In this document: positions 3,526 to 7,818 of the stretch, piece by piece
Position numbering within the stretch: the first letter of the stretch is position 1
Layout: each line of letters opens with the position of its first letter
Virus record (IMG/VR): IMGVR_UViG_3300044620_000527
Span: 1 to 64,000 of that record
Strand: one strand, 5' to 3'
Source: a virus
DNA length: 64,000 bases
Program-made: the position numbers and the translations under genes
The notes under the pieces: model-generated
Seen by the model: the letters and a program-made list of their open reading frames with translations, nothing else
Told to the model about the DNA's origin: nothing
The model's database searches: none

Positions 3526-4446
3526 ATGTCATTTAAAGATTTAAAGAAGAAGTCCACCGATCTCTCAAAGATCACCCAAGAGTTGGATAAGTTGAACAAG
3601 GGTGGTGCAGAGTCGTACAAGGACGACCGGTTCTGGAAGCCTGAACTGGATCAAGCATCAAATGGTTTTGCAGTAATTCGATTCCTACCGGTCGTTGACG
3701 GTGAGGATGTTCCTTGGGCGCGTGTGTTTAGTCACGGGTTCCAAGGCAAGGGTGGATGGTTCATTGAGAACTGCCCAACTACACTAGGTAAGAAGTGCCC
3801 AGTGTGTGAAGCAAACAACGAACTTTGGAACAGCGGGATTGAAGACGACAAGACTGTTGCGCGTGATCGTAAGCGCAAGTTGAGTTATGTTGCCAATGTT
3901 TATGTTGTTTCCGATCCAAAGCACCCAGAGAACGAGGGTAAGGTGTTCCTCTTTAAGTTCGGTAAGAAGATCTTTGATAAGATCATGGAGAAGATCCAAC
4001 CCGAATTCCCAGATGATTCTCCTGTCAATGTGTTTGATTTCTGGCAAGGTGCAAACTTCAAGTTGAAGATTCGCAAGGTTGCTGGTTATATCAACTATGA
4101 CAAGAGTGAATTTGAAGAGCCAACTCCGCTTCTTGGTGGTGATGATGCAAAGTTGGAAGCACTTTGGAAGAAGCAGTATGCTCTTAAGGAGTTCACTAAT
4201 CCCGAGAACTTCAAGTCTTATGACGAACTAAAGTCTAAGATGGAATCAGTTCTTCGTGGTGGCAGTGAAGGTAAGGCAAAGACTGCGGAAGAGATGGAGC
4301 AGATTGAGGACGCGGAGCAGCGTTTTGGTTCTGCACCAAAGTTCAAGAATCCTCCAAAGATGCCAGAAAAGAAGTCTCCGGTCGAAGATGATGCGGAGGA
4401 AGAGGATGCGCTCTCTTACTTTGAGAAGTTGGCAAAGGAAGAGTGA
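3526..4446 (+). CDS. gp32: Single-stranded DNA-binding protein gp32
   Basis: DDRFWKPELD, NGFAVIRFLP, HGFQGKGGWFIENCPTTLGKKCPVC zinc site, FKFGKKIFDKI, GANFKLKIRKV, NYDKSEF and acidic tail. Confidence 0.97.
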   Translation: MSFKDLKKKSTDLSKITQELDKLNKGGAESYKDDRFWKPELDQASNGFAVIRFLPVVDGEDVPWARVFSHGFQGKGGWFIENCPTTLGKKCPVCEANNELWNSGIEDDKTVARDRKRKLSYVANVYVVSDPKHPENEGKVFLFKFGKKIFDKIMEKIQPEFPDDSPVNVFDFWQGANFKLKIRKVAGYINYDKSEFEEPTPLLGGDDAKLEALWKKQYALKEFTNPENFKSYDELKSKMESVLRGGSEGKAKTAEEMEQIEDAEQRFGSAPKFKNPPKMPEKKSPVEDDAEEEDALSYFEKLAKEE

Positions 4447-4472: not shown

Positions 4473-4503
4473 AGAAGACGGCTTAAACGCCGTCTTTTCT
4501 TTT
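4473..4503. terminator. Rho-independent terminator between convergent gp32 and the tape-measure-like gene
   Basis: Stem AAGACGGC (4475-4482), loop TTAAAC, GCCGTCTT (4489-4496), then TTCTTT. Confidence 0.8.
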
Positions 4504-6391
4504 ATACATGCACACCAAATCCAGAACTTCTAGCGACATCTCTGGTTAGTGCTGCTGCCATTCCGCTCTCATCTGGTGGTATTGCTGCACCATCTACTAC
4601 TGTTCCACCGGATTGACCCATTGGCATCATCTTTGTGCCATTGTTGTAATAATTATTGTTTATAATTACTGGTTGTGTATTTGCTGCCGAAACTGGTGTT
4701 TGCATCAAATCATTATTCATATTTTGTTGAGTTTGATACCGTACTGCTTCTCCTGTTGTTGATTGTTGCGCGGGGGATAGAGAAGCAGTTGGTGTTGATT
4801 CAAACGCTGCTGTAGGTGCTATAGATGGTGTAGGTGCAACAGTTTCCTTCAATGATGGTGTTTCTACCTTTGCTGTTGGCGTTTGTCCTTCTGCTGTTGT
4901 TGGTTTTTCTACACCCTTCTTAAACCAATCACCTATTCCAGGCACAGAAGCCGCAAATTCATAAACTTCTTTTGGTCCTATTGCCTCTGCAATTAAATTA
5001 CCAACGTATTCACCACCATACGTTCCAATAACTCCACCGAGTATTGAACCCAAAGGTCCTCCAACCAAACCTACAGCGGAACCTATGGTAGTTCCGATAA
5101 GGGAACCCATTCTTTTACCTAATTCCGCACCAATTGCTTCCTTCTTTTGTTCTGGAGTTAAATTGGGATCTTGTTGTATTGCTGGTATGTTTAAGTATCC
5201 GATGATACCTTCAATTGCAGTACCAAGCAATGGTACTCTTTTTAGAGCAGGAAGTATTACGTTTTTACCAGGTCCTTTTAAGAATGCCATAGGATTTTTA
5301 ATGGCTTTTGCTAATTCTAGACCACCTTGTCCAAGTTGCTTCACCATCCCCACCGCACCAGTGCCTATATTTTTTGCAGTTTGTAACATTCTACCAAAGA
5401 AGCCGGGCTTTGGTGCTGCTGCGGCGGCTTGTGCTGTTGTGGATGCGGGGGTTGAAAGTAGTTGAGCAGGACTTGTGGTTGGTGTTGACGGGGGTTGCAT
5501 AACAAACCCTTGACCTGGAATGTTTTGTATTCCGGCTGCAACTGGGGCTACTGATTGTGCTATTGCTGGAGCAGCTGATCCAGCGGCACCAAGTGCAGTT
5601 CCAAAACCTAGAAGAGATAATGCTTTGCTTCCTGCTTTTGATGCCGTTCCTGTTATTGCTGCTTTTGTGCCAGTTGCTGCTTTTGTTGTGGTATCAATTG
5701 CTTTAGCGGCTGTTGTAATTGGGGCAGATGCGCCTCTTACCTTTGCAAGTGCTCCTAATTTTCCACCAGCAGCAACTCTGGCAACACGAGAAAGTGCTCC
5801 AGCCTTTCCTCCTCTTCTTAATGTAGAAGCAAGAATAGCAGCATCGGCGGCAGTGCTCAACAATCCACCACCAGAATCCTCACCAGAACCACCCGTTCCA
5901 ATTTTCTTCAAGATCTTTTCCATAATAACTTTAATGTCGATTAAAGTTTTATTTTGATCCATCTGCAAAGAAACTTGTTCTTGTTGAGCCTCAGCGGTTT
6001 CTCTTAGTTGTTCTGTCGATTGTTGGGGTATTGGTGAACGAGTTTGTGCCTTTAACGACGCACTTTCATTTTGTATACCAAGTATGGTTTTTACTTTTTG
6101 GATTAAATCGTTTACAGTCTTTTTTATGTTGTTTGCTAAGTTTATGTAAATATCAAATGCCTTTTTGACAAACTTGTAATCTAATCCCTGAGTTTGTTTT
6201 TGTACCGCAGCATCCATTTTTTCTGACAGAGTAGATGACTCTGGACGGGCAATTCTTCTTCGTGATGGAGTCGTGTTTCTTTGAAAAGAAGAAACCATAG
6301 CAGTTCCAGTATTTGAGAACATTCGTCCAATACCAGAAACTGCTTTAGTGTTTTGTTTACCCTCGGATGTTATTGTTGGTAGTGCTAACAT
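4502..6391 (-). CDS. Putative tape measure / baseplate hub protein (gp29-like)
   Basis: 629 aa Ala/Gly/Thr-rich protein with coiled-coil N-terminal half and glycine-zipper segment (GSLIGTTIGSAVGLVGGPLGSILGGVIGTYGG); directly downstream of gp26/gp51. Confidence 0.6.
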   Translation of the reverse strand: MLALPTITSEGKQNTKAVSGIGRMFSNTGTAMVSSFQRNTTPSRRRIARPESSTLSEKMDAAVQKQTQGLDYKFVKKAFDIYINLANNIKKTVNDLIQKVKTILGIQNESASLKAQTRSPIPQQSTEQLRETAEAQQEQVSLQMDQNKTLIDIKVIMEKILKKIGTGGSGEDSGGGLLSTAADAAILASTLRRGGKAGALSRVARVAAGGKLGALAKVRGASAPITTAAKAIDTTTKAATGTKAAITGTASKAGSKALSLLGFGTALGAAGSAAPAIAQSVAPVAAGIQNIPGQGFVMQPPSTPTTSPAQLLSTPASTTAQAAAAAPKPGFFGRMLQTAKNIGTGAVGMVKQLGQGGLELAKAIKNPMAFLKGPGKNVILPALKRVPLLGTAIEGIIGYLNIPAIQQDPNLTPEQKKEAIGAELGKRMGSLIGTTIGSAVGLVGGPLGSILGGVIGTYGGEYVGNLIAEAIGPKEVYEFAASVPGIGDWFKKGVEKPTTAEGQTPTAKVETPSLKETVAPTPSIAPTAAFESTPTASLSPAQQSTTGEAVRYQTQQNMNNDLMQTPVSAANTQPVIINNNYYNNGTKMMPMGQSGGTVVDGAAIPPDESGMAAALTRDVARSSGFGVHV

Positions 6392-6394
6392 TAG

Positions 6395-6550
6395 TTATTT
6401 TTTCTTTAATTGTTCTTTTCTTTTATTTATTTCCTCTACATGTTTTATTAAAAGATTTAGATATATTTCTCGCTCCCACGGTATCATATTTTCCAATTCA
6501 GTTAGGCTGTACTTATGTTCTTGGATTAGTATAAAGTTTGTTTTATACAT
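6395..6550 (-). CDS. gp51: Baseplate hub assembly chaperone gp51-like (51 aa, below ORF track cutoff; possibly made as a frameshift fusion with gp26)
   Basis: Manual translation MYKTNFILIQEHKYSLTELENMIPWEREIYLNLLIKHVEEINKRKEQLKKK contains the KYSLTELENMIPWERxIY signature. Confidence 0.85.
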   Translation of the reverse strand: MYKTNFILIQEHKYSLTELENMIPWEREIYLNLLIKHVEEINKRKEQLKKK

Positions 6551-6576
6551 GTTTTCCAAAGACTCATTCGCCAGCC

Positions 6577-7278
6577 CTAGTCGAAAAAATCAACAAATTT
6601 ATCCAAAACAACCTTTACTTTCTTTTGTGAATACGGCGACATTTCTTCCGACTCATAGTATATTGAGGGCATTGTATCAAAAAATTTACTCATTTTTTCG
6701 TACATATCTTGCGTAAATTGTTCTACAAATTCTTGTAGTTCTTTTTTAGAATAGTCTGAAGCATTATATACAGAATCTTTATCGTAAATTTTATCAATGC
6801 AATTTACTATGATATTGAATCCATTTTCTACCAACGGTTTAGATGGATCTACTGATAGAATTGCTCGCATGTTTGGGTACTTCATTTCCACAAACAAAGA
6901 ATCTGATAATTTTAATCTTTTTTCGTGTTTTGTTGATCTTTTTACTATAACTTTATTTAAATCTACATTTACTTCAAATTTTTTATTTGTATCTGGATCA
7001 ATAACATTCACTTTGATTACTTCACCTATTGATTTTTCTCTTAATTTTAGAAAAATATATTCAATATCAAATGATGGTAATTCTTCAATATCTACTTTAT
7101 CGATCAAACAATTTGTTATAACTTGATCCATTGCTTGCAGAATCTGATCATTGTCTTTAGATTCTGCGGCAATTAGAAGAATTTTTTCTTCCTTTACTAA
7201 GAATGGTCTATATCTTACTTTTTGACCATTTGATGGTAATTTCATTTCAAAGGTTGCAACGTCAATTTTTGGTAACAT
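6577..7278 (-). CDS. gp26: Baseplate hub subunit / assembly chaperone gp26-like
   Basis: LPKIDVATFEMKLPSNGQKVRYRPFLVKEEKILLIAAES, FDIEYIFLKLREKSIGE, MKYP, KFFDTMP and C-terminal DFF. Confidence 0.9.
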   Translation of the reverse strand: MLPKIDVATFEMKLPSNGQKVRYRPFLVKEEKILLIAAESKDNDQILQAMDQVITNCLIDKVDIEELPSFDIEYIFLKLREKSIGEVIKVNVIDPDTNKKFEVNVDLNKVIVKRSTKHEKRLKLSDSLFVEMKYPNMRAILSVDPSKPLVENGFNIIVNCIDKIYDKDSVYNASDYSKKELQEFVEQFTQDMYEKMSKFFDTMPSIYYESEEMSPYSQKKVKVVLDKFVDFFD

Positions 7279-7290
7279 TATTTAATCTCC

Positions 7291-7818
7291 TTAGCGATTA
7301 TTCGATTTTGTAAATTCTGCATCTTGATATGAGAAAGTGACAGTTTGTTTTAAATATGAATCTCTGTCATCAAAAGACAATTGAGCGGCGTCTATGTTTG
7401 TTATTAATACTCTATTGAGTCTAACTGCATATAGTGTATTGCTTGCAGAATCCATAGCAACTATGTTTAAAGTGCCCCATAAATTATTTACATATTCTAC
7501 AAAATAATCAGATTGACTTTTGGGACTTGCTTTTTCCATAAATGCATACAAATCTGCCGTGGGGTTTCCAGCACCATCCAATCTGAAAGTGATATTGCAT
7601 GTTTGTGCCGGTAATTTAGCATATGGGATTTTAATTATGGGTTGTGTGTTATATTGAAAATCGGCAGTACCAAGAGCGAGTGCAGGAAATTCAACAGATT
7701 CTACTAAAATTTGATATGCGCTTAATGAAGTTCCTGGCAGAAAAATATCTACAGAAAATCTGTTTGGACGCACCAAACCGGTTATTGCTCTTAAACTACT
7801 GGCTACATCTGATGCCAT
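7291..7818 (-). CDS. Tail-tube-fold protein, gp54-like tube initiator
   Basis: GLVRPNRFSVDI, VESVEFP, IKIPY and QTVTFSY (gp19/gp54 fold); syntenic between gp2 and gp26. Confidence 0.65.
   Translation of the reverse strand: MASDVASSLRAITGLVRPNRFSVDIFLPGTSLSAYQILVESVEFPALALGTADFQYNTQPIIKIPYAKLPAQTCNITFRLDGAGNPTADLYAFMEKASPKSQSDYFVEYVNNLWGTLNIVAMDSASNTLYAVRLNRVLITNIDAAQLSFDDRDSYLKQTVTFSYQDAEFTKSNNR

What the first reader, a model, noticed from the sequence alone, without database searches (positions are those of the whole stretch)
6395..6595. Candidate programmed -1 frameshift fusing gp26 to gp51 just upstream of the tape-measure gene (lambda G/GT-like)
Seen: on the minus strand gp26 ends GAT TTT TTC GAC TAG, giving a correctly phased X XXY YYZ heptamer T TTT TTC at 6589-6583. 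The gp51-like ORF is in the -1 frame. That frame is closed by a TGA immediately before the heptamer and is then open (F-F-R-L-G-L-A-N-E-S-L-E-N-M-Y-K-T-N-F) to 6395. The ESLEN residues before the first ATG resemble the conserved start of gp51-like proteins as I recall them, and that ATG has no strong SD. Established: tail-assembly chaperone pairs upstream of tape-measure genes (lambda G/GT) use a -1 frameshift. Inference: gp26/gp51 here are the T4-like equivalent, producing a 233-aa protein and a fusion of about 294 aa.
Basis: partly seen in the sequence, partly recalled or inferred. Interest (0 to 1): 0.8.

Follow-up and report, generated by a model that had tools for sequence, protein, structure and literature searches.

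The report
Frameshift in T4-like hub-chaperone gene
One tail-assembly gene of this uncultured freshwater T4-like phage very probably makes a 233-residue and a 294-residue protein, because some ribosomes slip back one base on a strictly conserved TTTTTTC. Phage T4 makes the same pair from two separate genes (26 and 51), so T4's relatives fill the one reported gap ('except T4') in the tail-chaperone frameshift of long-tailed phages.

Summary
gp26 (7278-6577, minus strand) ends GAT TTT TTC GAC TAG. The heptamer T_TTT_TTC (6589-6583) is in phase. The -1 frame is closed by TGA just before it and is then open for 64 codons to 6395.

Comparative evidence makes a programmed -1 frameshift the best reading (about 0.8):
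- All 80 IMG/VR loci found with the extension domain, and 11 of 13 distant isolates sampled, have the extension in the -1 frame behind an in-phase T_TTT_TTN.
- The codon before the heptamer changes amino acid six ways but always ends in T.
- About half of the loci have no ATG for the extension.
- Homology reaches back to the heptamer without a single indel.
- T4 gp51 is a gp26-family domain plus this extension in one frame.
- T4 has two gp26-family genes; nine other complete genomes have one.
- The gp26 N-terminal domain models like the HK97 and YqbN tail assembly chaperones.

No expression data prove the product. Transcriptional slippage and separate initiation at ATG 6550 remain minor rivals. 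I found no paper reporting the frameshift; a 2016 review says 'except T4'. This scan has already noted the same thing in more than 300 other genomes. It is a new member of a known kind.

The parts
6577..7278 (-). gp26-family gene (233 codons plus TAG): the zero-frame product, the short chaperone form
   Evidence: PF12322 T4_baseplate E 1.2e-59 and phrog_150 E 2.9e-64. AF2 model has mean pLDDT 90.9. Residues 1-90 resemble the HK97 tail assembly chaperone 2ob9 (Z 7.8), YqbN 3klu (Z 7.2) and 3fgx (Z 7.1); the next hit scores 4.4. A strong SD (AAGGAG) precedes its ATG.
6583..6589 (-). Slippery heptamer T_TTT_TTC in X_XXY_YYZ phase; proposed site of the tandem -1 slip of two tRNA-Phe
   Evidence: Sequence. 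Conserved in phase in 80 of 80 IMG/VR loci (TTTTTTC 68, TTTTTTA 7, TTTTTTT 5) and in 11 of 13 diverse isolates. The third base of the preceding codon is always T.
6590..6592 (-). TGA that closes the -1 frame directly upstream of the heptamer
   Evidence: Entry into the -1 ORF is possible only at or after the heptamer.
6577..6579 (-). Zero-frame stop TAG, one codon after the heptamer
   Evidence: The spacing is exactly one codon in 79 of 80 related loci.
6395..6589 (-). -1 frame extension (64 codons counted from the heptamer, plus TAA), homologous to cyanophage 'gp51' and to the C-terminus of T4 gp51
   Evidence: phrog_634 E 4.7e-24 over residues 2-63, and phrog_150 profile positions 231-280 of 282. 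It aligns with T4 gp51 residues 201-249. The model has three helices, pLDDT 80.
6548..6550 (-). First ATG of the -1 frame (codon 14 of the extension): the alternative, independent start
   Evidence: It is replaced by TTG in the 89%-identical relatives L004-L008 and is absent in many others.
6504..6577 (-). Candidate stimulatory RNA structure. The 5' arm GGGCUGGC starts 5 nt after the heptamer and pairs with 6512-6504.
   Evidence: MFE -26.5 kcal/mol, z -2.33, with 2 of 200 shuffles as stable. It is kept in 4 clade members with one covarying pair. It is not conserved family-wide. The support is weak.
4502..6391 (-). 629-codon putative tape measure (gp29 analogue); it starts 4 nt after the extension's stop
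   Evidence: Supported by position, size, Ala/Gly-rich composition and weak hits: phrog_23574 tape measure E 6e-6, phrog_1047 E 1e-9. No similarity to T4 gp29 or to any phage record. The assignment is inferred.
7291..7818 (-). Tail-tube-fold protein (gp54/gp19-like) directly upstream of gp26
   Evidence: phrog_45 'tail tube' E 3.3e-17. The same order, gp2 / tube-like / gp26, is seen in phiM7, Aeromonas phage 65 and Vibrio D481.

Best explanation
Gene 26 of this phage is a recoded tail or baseplate-hub assembly chaperone gene. Most ribosomes read GAT TTT TTC GAC TAG and release the 233-aa gp26. A minority, with tRNA-Phe on UUU in the P site and on UUC in the A site, slip back one base on U_UUU_UUC. 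They then read CGA CUA GGG... and make a 294-aa fusion whose last 62 residues form a small three-helix domain. That fusion is the counterpart of T4 gp51, and the short form is the counterpart of T4 gp26. By analogy with lambda gpG/gpGT, the shared domain would hold the tape-measure protein encoded just downstream, and the extension would recruit the next assembly partner. A fixed, low ratio of long to short form would be set by the slip frequency. Shown here: the sequence signal, its conservation in phase, the homology and the architectures. Inferred: that the slip happens, its rate, and the binding partners.
For: (1) The signal is present as described.
(2) In loci found with the extension domain alone, 80 of 80 (79 distinct junctions) have it in the -1 frame behind a 229-259-codon gp26 ORF with an in-phase T_TTT_TT[C/A/T]. 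In 79 of 80 the stop follows one codon later.
(3) The conservation is at nucleotide level. The preceding codon is AGT, AAT, TCT, GCT, GAT or CAT, so the amino acid varies but the third base is always T. In the same genes GCT is 33% of Ala codons and TCT 53% of TCN Ser codons. The first Phe codon is TTT in 79 of 79 junctions against a 75% background. The seventh base is C in 68 of 80 although TTC is only 25% of Phe codons.
(4) The signal persists in GC-rich relatives: DLP_6 and Mendera at 54% GC, phiM7 at 50%, RL2RES at 51%.
(5) T4 gene 26, which needs no shift, encodes the same conserved Phe-Phe as GAG TTC TTT, which is not slippery.
(6) 31 of 65 aligned relatives have no ATG in the first 20 extension codons. 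Several have no ATG, GTG or TTG at all before the conserved core, and their -1 frame is closed right before the heptamer.
(7) There are zero gaps in 65 sequences over 108 columns from the heptamer onward, and codon periodicity in the -1 frame holds upstream of the window's ATG.
(8) T4 gp51 residues 1-201 match PF12322 (E 3.9e-52) and its C-terminus matches the extension. T4 has two PF12322 genes; nine other complete genomes have one.
(9) U_UU.U_UU.C and U_UU.U_UU.U belong to the efficient H_HH.U_UU.Y class in E. coli and are used by IS elements (PMC4066793).
(10) Relatives carry classic ribosomal stimulators. An SD-like GGAGG or GAGG lies exactly 10 nt upstream in 51 of 79 junctions, and the Glu codon there is GAG in 85% against 27% gene-wide. 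A covarying hairpin lies 6 nt downstream in the TTTTTTA subclade.
(11) The gp26 N-terminal domain resembles solved tail assembly chaperones.
(12) T4 gp26 and gp51 are listed as hub assembly chaperones, and gp51 is required but absent from the particle (PMC3004832).
Against: No protein, ribosome-profiling or reporter data exist for this phage or, as far as I could find, for any relative. The window has an in-frame ATG at extension codon 14, so a separate 51-aa product is possible here. The window lacks the upstream SD-like element seen in most relatives, and its candidate downstream structure is only weakly supported (z -2.33, one covarying pair). The related sequences are not phylogenetically independent, so the naive codon probabilities overstate significance. 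The 629-aa protein shows no sequence similarity to T4 gp29. The structural match to tail assembly chaperones (Z 7.1-7.8) lies in a range where common arrangements can also score.
Confidence: 0.8

Rival explanations
1. The same fusion protein is made by transcriptional slippage. RNA polymerase adds one extra U in the U7 run, and ordinary translation of that minority mRNA gives gp26 plus the extension.
For: The site is a homopolymer of 7 T, and of 8 in some relatives. One inserted U gives exactly the -1 frame. Runs of 7 identical A or U are under-represented in E. coli genes, partly because of such slippage (PMC4066793). The read data here are contigs, which drop minority variants, so they cannot exclude it.
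Against: Selection caps the run at seven: the seventh base is C in 68 of 80 loci although TTC is the minor Phe codon. Slippage by polymerase would favour longer runs. The run is always in X_XXY_YYZ phase. Ackermannviridae and Vibrio K452 relatives keep only an in-phase U_UU.C or U_UU.U tetramer with 4-5 T. Relatives have an SD-like element at 10 nt upstream and a hairpin at 6 nt downstream, which act on ribosomes. RNA-library contigs carry the genomic run length.
Confidence: 0.08
2. There is no recoding. The extension is a separate small protein started at ATG 6550 (or TTG 6559), as current annotations of cyanophage 'gp51' assume, and the T run is kept only because gp26 needs a C-terminal Phe-Phe.
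For: An ATG exists in this window, and at codons 4-7 in about half of the relatives. GenBank and RefSeq records annotate 46-63-aa 'baseplate hub assembly catalyst' genes. Vibrio K452 has ATG ATG overlapping the stop.
Against: Many relatives have no start codon. Conservation, absence of indels and codon periodicity all begin at the heptamer, not at the ATG. The ATG of the window's own clade is TTG in 89%-identical relatives. The third base of the non-Phe codon before the run is invariant. T4 keeps Phe-Phe with TTC TTT. In T4 the extension exists only fused to a gp26-type domain.
Confidence: 0.08
3. It is an artefact or a decaying gene: a one-base error or mutation in a homopolymer split a single 294-codon gene.
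For: Rare single-ORF versions exist as singletons in metagenome protein sets (P0003, P0004, P0007-P0009).
Against: Independent assemblies of at least two other lake DNA runs and two RNA libraries show the same run length. The split arrangement is universal among 80 loci and cultured isolates. The fused forms are singletons with irregular junctions, as expected of homopolymer errors.
Confidence: 0.02

Closest known systems
Lambda gpG/gpGT and the conserved -1 frameshift of tail assembly chaperone genes in long-tailed phages (Levin 1993; Xu, Hendrix and Duda 2004, 2013, 2014, as summarised in PMC5009743)
   Same: Two overlapping ORFs lie between a tube-type gene and the putative tape-measure gene. 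An in-phase slippery heptamer sits near the end of the first ORF. The second ORF is in the -1 frame, short, and usually lacks its own start. The result is a short product and a C-terminally extended one. The modelled N-terminal domain resembles solved chaperones of this class.
   Different: The protein family differs (PF12322, about 230 aa and two domains, against about 140 aa for gpG). The heptamer is U_UUU_UUC rather than G_GGA_AAG. The zero-frame stop follows one codon after the site. The review cited states that this frameshift is conserved 'except T4'. Binding to the tape measure and to the tube is not shown here.
Phage T4 gp26 (208 aa) and gp51 (249 aa), baseplate hub assembly chaperones (PMC3004832)
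   Same: Same families: both T4 proteins match PF12322, and the gp51 C-terminus aligns with the extension from its first residues. gp51 is needed for hub assembly but is absent from the virion, like a GT-type chaperone.
   Different: T4 encodes the two forms as separate, divergently transcribed paralogous genes with no slippery site (Phe-Phe is TTC TTT in gene 26). Gene 51 is separated from the tape-measure gene 29 by genes 27 and 28. This phage has a single gene and must recode to make the long form.
Cyanophage 'gp51 baseplate hub assembly catalyst' annotations (P-SSM2 PSSM2_015, P-RSM6 CPXG_00206 and others)
   Same: Same ORF, same frame relation and same heptamer as in the window.
   Different: They are annotated as free-standing 57-63-aa proteins starting at an internal ATG. 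No record seen here carries a ribosomal-slippage join.
E. coli dnaX -1 frameshift (own knowledge: Larsen et al. 1994, an SD-like element 10 nt 5' of the site plus a 3' hairpin)
   Same: Most relatives have GGAGG or GAGG exactly 10 nt upstream of the heptamer, and some have a hairpin 6 nt downstream.
   Different: The window itself lacks the SD-like element. In dnaX the shift truncates the protein; here it extends it.

Membership tests
T4 gp26/gp51 family (Pfam PF12322 T4_baseplate; phrog_150) | Full-length match to the family profile above the curated cut-off | tested here: met
   E 1.2e-59, 202 bits against a cut-off of 24.5, covering residues 8-232 and profile positions 2-218 of 219. phrog_150 E 2.9e-64.
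T4 gp26/gp51 family (Pfam PF12322 T4_baseplate; phrog_150) | The long (gp51-type) form carries a C-terminal helical extension homologous to the T4 gp51 C-terminus | tested here: met
   The -1 frame translation matches phrog_634 (E 4.7e-24) and phrog_150 positions 231-280. It aligns with T4 gp51 residues 201-249. A source database tags the domain as PF28602, which is not in the local Pfam copy.
Lambda G/GT-type tail assembly chaperone frameshift | [quoted passage not shown] | tested here: met
   for the window. 80 of 80 loci and 11 of 13 isolates.
Lambda G/GT-type tail assembly chaperone frameshift | Signal and phase conserved among relatives despite sequence divergence | tested here: met
   gp26 identity falls to 23-40% with the heptamer and phase kept. 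GC-rich genomes are included.
Lambda G/GT-type tail assembly chaperone frameshift | Position between the tail tube gene and the tape-measure gene | tested here: inconclusive
   The upstream tube-fold gene is supported (phrog_45). The downstream 629-aa protein is tape-measure-like only by size, position and weak hits; it has no similarity to gp29. Homologous loci in Cr30 and HTVC008M annotate a tape measure one small gene further on.
Lambda G/GT-type tail assembly chaperone frameshift | Tail-assembly-chaperone fold of the shared domain | tested here: inconclusive
   VIA-align top three hits are 2ob9 (HK97 chaperone, Z 7.8, 83 residues aligned, rmsd 3.6), 3klu (YqbN, Z 7.2) and 3fgx (Z 7.1), all on residues 1-94; the next hit scores 4.4. 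That YqbN (3klu) and 3fgx are tail assembly chaperones is my own knowledge, not stated in their PDB titles. The gap is suggestive, but Z below 8 is not decisive. Foldseek found nothing.
Lambda G/GT-type tail assembly chaperone frameshift | Both products are made in a fixed low ratio and neither is in the virion | not testable with these tools
   Only indirect evidence: T4 gp51 is required but absent from the particle (PMC3004832).
Lambda G/GT-type tail assembly chaperone frameshift | The G part binds the tape measure; the T part binds the tube or an initiator | not testable with these tools
   No experimental data are available.

The most novel reading that the evidence does not exclude
The -1 frameshift is ancestral to the whole T4 superfamily: Kyanoviridae, pelagiphages, rhizobial and Stenotrophomonas T4-likes, schizo-T4 vibriophages, Aeromonas phage 65, and Ackermannviridae in tetramer form. 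T4 and its close kin replaced it by duplicating the gene. If so, T4 gp26 and gp51 are a diverged G/GT pair acting on the tape measure gp29. This would explain the long-unexplained 'catalytic' requirement for gp51. The family would also be a natural series of interchangeable recoding solutions: heptamer plus upstream SD, heptamer plus hairpin, tetramer, a possible +1 site, and two genes.
Probability: 0.55. Interest if true: 0.75.

Novelty: new member of a known kind. Interest (0 to 1): 0.6.

Why it matters
Tail-chaperone frameshifting is described as conserved in long-tailed phages 'except T4' (PMC5009743). This locus and its relatives show that the T4 lineage is probably not an exception: most T4-like phages keep the frameshift, and T4 itself encodes the two forms as separate genes. 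Three consequences follow.

- It gives a concrete, testable function, a G/GT-type tape-measure chaperone pair, to T4 gp26 and gp51. [quoted passage not shown]
- It implies that hundreds of database records annotate a fragment ('gp51', 46-63 aa) as a protein, or miss the ORF altogether, as in Ackermannviridae and Aeromonas phage 65.
- It offers a large natural data set on how a U_UUU_UUN site is tuned by an upstream SD-like element, a downstream hairpin or an adjacent stop codon.

Tried and rejected
- Complex prediction of the 629-aa protein with gp26 gave no answer: score 0.00, controls not run. It is not evidence either way.
- Foldseek against the PDB with the gp26 model gave no match at E <= 0.001; the top rows were T-fold enzymes with TM about 0.15.
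- RNAalifold on 65 diverse junctions found no consensus pair, so there is no family-wide RNA stimulator.
- The gp26 alignment A1 was too divergent for the search for related loci.
- The mixed alignment A7 (a fused singleton plus separate parts) was misaligned by MAFFT and was not folded. I therefore have no model of the whole fusion.
- The +1-frame ORF behind gp26 in L018-L021 aligns in register with the extension profile, but not significantly (hhalign E 0.18).
- The 629-aa protein shows nothing against T4 gp29 or the phage collection.
- Read laying used assembled contigs only. It cannot show minority U insertions, transcript ends or expression level. Parts of gp26 without RNA-library cover (6892-7243) mean nothing.
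- Ten literature searches (one search was rejected for a term under 3 characters) found no report of a gp26/gp51 frameshift. Subscription journals are largely outside the library, so absence is not proven.

Full report
WHAT IS THERE. On the minus strand the window carries, in order:
- a gp2-like DNA end protector (8387-7818);
- a tail-tube-fold protein (7818-7291; phrog_45);
- a 233-codon gene of the T4 gp26 family (7278-6577; PF12322 E 1.2e-59; phrog_150);
- a short ORF in another frame (to 6395);
- four bases later, a 629-codon Ala/Gly-rich gene (6391-4502) that has only weak profile hits to tape-measure and tail-lysin families.

Earlier notes of this scan describe the record as an uncultured freshwater T4-like phage. 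The stretch is held by at least 15 lake or freshwater DNA runs.

THE OBSERVATION. gp26 ends GTT GAT TTT TTC GAC TAG, so T_TTT_TTC (6589-6583) is in X_XXY_YYZ phase. The -1 frame has TGA directly before the heptamer and then reads FFRLGLANESLENMYKTNF... for 64 codons. The first ATG is codon 14. A tandem slip would give gp26(1-232) plus 62 residues, 294 aa in all. The heptamer string itself is common: 31 copies in the window, fewer than the 45 expected. The string alone therefore proves nothing. Contigs from two independent DNA runs and two RNA libraries cross the run without an indel, so it is not an assembly error.

HOMOLOGY OF THE EXTENSION. Translated from the heptamer, the -1 frame matches phrog_634 ('baseplate hub assembly catalyst', the gp51 family) from residue 2 to 63, well upstream of the ATG. 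It also matches positions 231-280 of the 282-position gp26 profile phrog_150. That profile contains the extension because T4 gp51 belongs to it. T4 gp51 residues 1-201 match PF12322 full-length (E 3.9e-52), like gp26 (E 8.8e-64), and its C-terminus matches phrog_634. That C-terminus aligns with the window's extension from its first residues. T4 gp26 and gp51 are therefore paralogues, a short and a long form, encoded divergently. The 57-63-aa 'gp51' of cyanophages is only the tail of the long form.

COMPARATIVE TEST.
- P-RSM6 and P-SSM2 end gp26 with AGT TTT TTC GGG TAG and AGT TTT TTC GTA TAA, with 'gp51' in the -1 frame.
- Fifteen of the nineteen IMG/VR loci found with gp26 show the same arrangement. 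In six of them (T_TTT_TTT) the -1 ORF has no ATG, GTG or TTG before its conserved core and is closed right before the heptamer. In the 89%-identical relatives of the window the ATG is TTG.
- Thirteen further isolates from distant groups were read. Eleven have an in-phase T_TTT_TTN with the extension in the -1 frame: Melnitz, DLP_6, phiM7, S-CRM01, Aeromonas phage 65, Mendera, the KVP40-like Vibrio D481, RL2RES, HTVC008M, Cr30 and S-SKS1. Their GC content ranges from 34 to 54%.
- A search seeded only with the extension domain returned 80 loci with 79 distinct junctions. In all 80 the extension is in the -1 frame behind a 229-259-codon gp26 ORF (one locus is cut at 153 codons), with an in-phase heptamer (TTTTTTC 68, TTTTTTA 7, TTTTTTT 5). 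In 79 the stop follows exactly one codon later. Every tblastn match starts at extension residue 1.

NUCLEOTIDE-LEVEL CONSTRAINT. The codon before the run is AGT (28), AAT (16), TCT (12), GCT (12), GAT (8) or CAT (3). That is five different amino acids (six codons), and the third base is always T. In the same genes GCT is 33% of Ala codons and TCT is 53% of TCN codons. The first Phe codon is always TTT, against a 75% background. The seventh base is C in 85% of loci although TTC is only 25% of Phe codons. These sequences are related, so naive probabilities overstate the case, but the repeated amino-acid changes with T retained are independent events.

T4 provides a control. Its gp26 keeps the Phe-Phe motif (GLKEFFELL) but encodes it as GAG TTC TTT, which is not slippery.

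From the heptamer onward, 65 diverse sequences align over 108 columns without one gap. Entropy by codon position in the -1 frame is 1.08, 0.68 and 1.50 for extension codons 3-13, which lie upstream of the window's ATG. Thirty-one of the 65 have no ATG in the first 20 codons.

COPY NUMBER. T4 has two PF12322 genes. P-SSM2, HTVC008M, phiM7, DLP_6, Aeromonas phage 65, Vibrio D481, Klebsiella UPM2146, Vibrio K452 and Cr30 have one each. The window's own record, 43% complete, has one. The pattern is complementary: either two genes, or one gene plus a slip site.

MECHANISM. U_UU.U_UU.C and U_UU.U_UU.U belong to the efficient H_HH.U_UU.Y class measured in E. coli and are used by IS elements. U_UU.C and U_UU.U are the best tetramers after A_AA.G (PMC4066793).

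Relatives carry stimulators typical of ribosomal frameshifting.
- GGAGG or GAGG lies exactly 10 nt upstream in 51 of 79 junctions. The Glu codon there is GAG in 85% against 27% gene-wide. From my own knowledge, this is the spacing of the dnaX stimulator.
- The seven TTTTTTA loci have an 8-bp hairpin 6 nt downstream with two covarying pairs.

The window has neither element. Its candidate is a stem starting 5 nt after the heptamer (6577-6570 pairing with 6512-6504), with z -2.33, kept in four clade members with one covarying pair. This support is weak. The stop one codon after the site may also contribute; that is inference.

Transcriptional slippage on U7 would give the same protein and cannot be excluded from contig data. 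Three points argue for the ribosome: the run is capped at seven by a minor codon, it is always in phase, and the Ackermannviridae and K452 variants carry only an in-phase tetramer.

FUNCTION. The gp26 model is confident (pLDDT 90.9). Foldseek found nothing. An all-against-representatives structural search put three entries on top: HK97 tail assembly chaperone 2ob9 (Z 7.8), YqbN 3klu (Z 7.2) and 3fgx (Z 7.1). All three align to residues 1-94 of the model, and the next hit scores 4.4. That YqbN and 3fgx are prophage tail assembly chaperones is my own knowledge, not stated in their PDB titles. This is suggestive, not decisive. The extension models as three helices (pLDDT 80).

[quoted passage not shown] Together with the gene order, this fits the lambda model, in which the G part binds the tape measure, the T part recruits the tube protein, and the two products are made at about 30:1 (PMC5009743). 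The binding steps are inferred.

COMPARISON AND NOVELTY. The mechanism is the well-known G/GT kind, and the protein family is the known gp26/gp51 family. What appears to be unreported is that the two coincide. The 2016 recoding review says the G-T frameshift is conserved in long-tailed phages 'except T4'. Ten full-text searches found no paper describing a gp26/gp51 frameshift. No GenBank or RefSeq record seen here annotates a slippage join. This scan has noted the same signal in more than 300 other genomes, with follow-up agents reaching the same reading. I re-derived the main points independently. I also added the upstream SD-like element, the T4 TTC TTT control, the run-capping argument against transcriptional slippage, and the read check. 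I rate it a new member of a known kind, with interest 0.6.

Noticed in passing
L036-L115 (IMG/VR relatives), 10 nt upstream of each heptamer: An SD-like GGAGG (34) or GAGG (17) lies exactly 10 nt 5' of the heptamer in 51 of 79 distinct junctions. The Glu codon there is GAG in 85% of cases against 27% gene-wide. This resembles the dnaX upstream stimulator. The window itself (GAT AAA) lacks it.
   Followed up: partly
L038, L045, L058, L059, L083, L087 (positions 1213-1232 of each): The T_TTT_TTA subclade has an 8-bp hairpin starting 6 nt after the heptamer, with two covarying pairs (AU/GC, and CG/AU/UA). It may compensate for a weaker seventh base.
   Followed up: partly
L032 2226-2399, L117, L118 (Ackermannviridae: Klebsiella UPM2146, Erwinia phiEa2809, E. 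coli Sa157lw): gp26 ends with a conserved ATT TTC ATT TAA. An unannotated -1 ORF without any start codon follows and is homologous to the extension (hhalign probability 86%, E 5e-6). The only slip motif is the in-phase tetramer U_UU.C. Vibrio K452 has CTT TTT GCG TAA TG ATG (U_UU.U, or coupled re-initiation).
   Followed up: partly
L018-L021, around 3680-3845: In a distant gp26 clade (28% identity) the gene ends GAG TTT TTT CGG CCT TTC TTC TAA, and an extension-like ORF (FFGLSSNYRE...) lies in the +1 frame. This could be a +1 slip of tRNA-Phe from UUU to UUC before CGG. The homology to the extension is not significant (E 0.18).
   Followed up: partly
L022 7803-7830 (T4 gene 26, 3' end): T4 gp26 keeps the C-terminal GL..FF motif but encodes it as GAG TTC TTT, breaking the heptamer. 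T4 gp51 reads straight through the equivalent point (DVFKLLV).
   Followed up: yes
L027 2193-2369 (Aeromonas phage 65); also S-WAM1 and S-CAM7 MT586120: The extension ORF is not annotated, or only a 26-aa fragment of it is, in several isolate records. In phage 65 it has no start codon before the conserved core.
   Followed up: no
Proteins P0003, P0004, P0007, P0008, P0009: Singleton metagenome ORFs carry gp26 and the extension in one frame with irregular junctions (SFFSRKYGH, ASFSVEY...). They are most simply homopolymer-length errors at the T run. P0002 and P0011 join the extension to neighbouring sequence.
   Followed up: partly
window 6391-6397: The 629-codon gene starts 4 nt after the extension's stop (TAA CTA ATG) without a strong SD. 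Its translation may therefore be coupled to that of the upstream ORFs.
   Followed up: no
window 6434-6627 (run X16, record 15): An RNA-library contig of a related strain differs at 19 positions, including GTT>GTA just before the site, but keeps the heptamer and the run length.
   Followed up: partly
whole window: TTTTTTC occurs 31 times on both strands against 45 +/- 7 expected from dinucleotide-preserving shuffles, so it is mildly under-represented.
   Followed up: no
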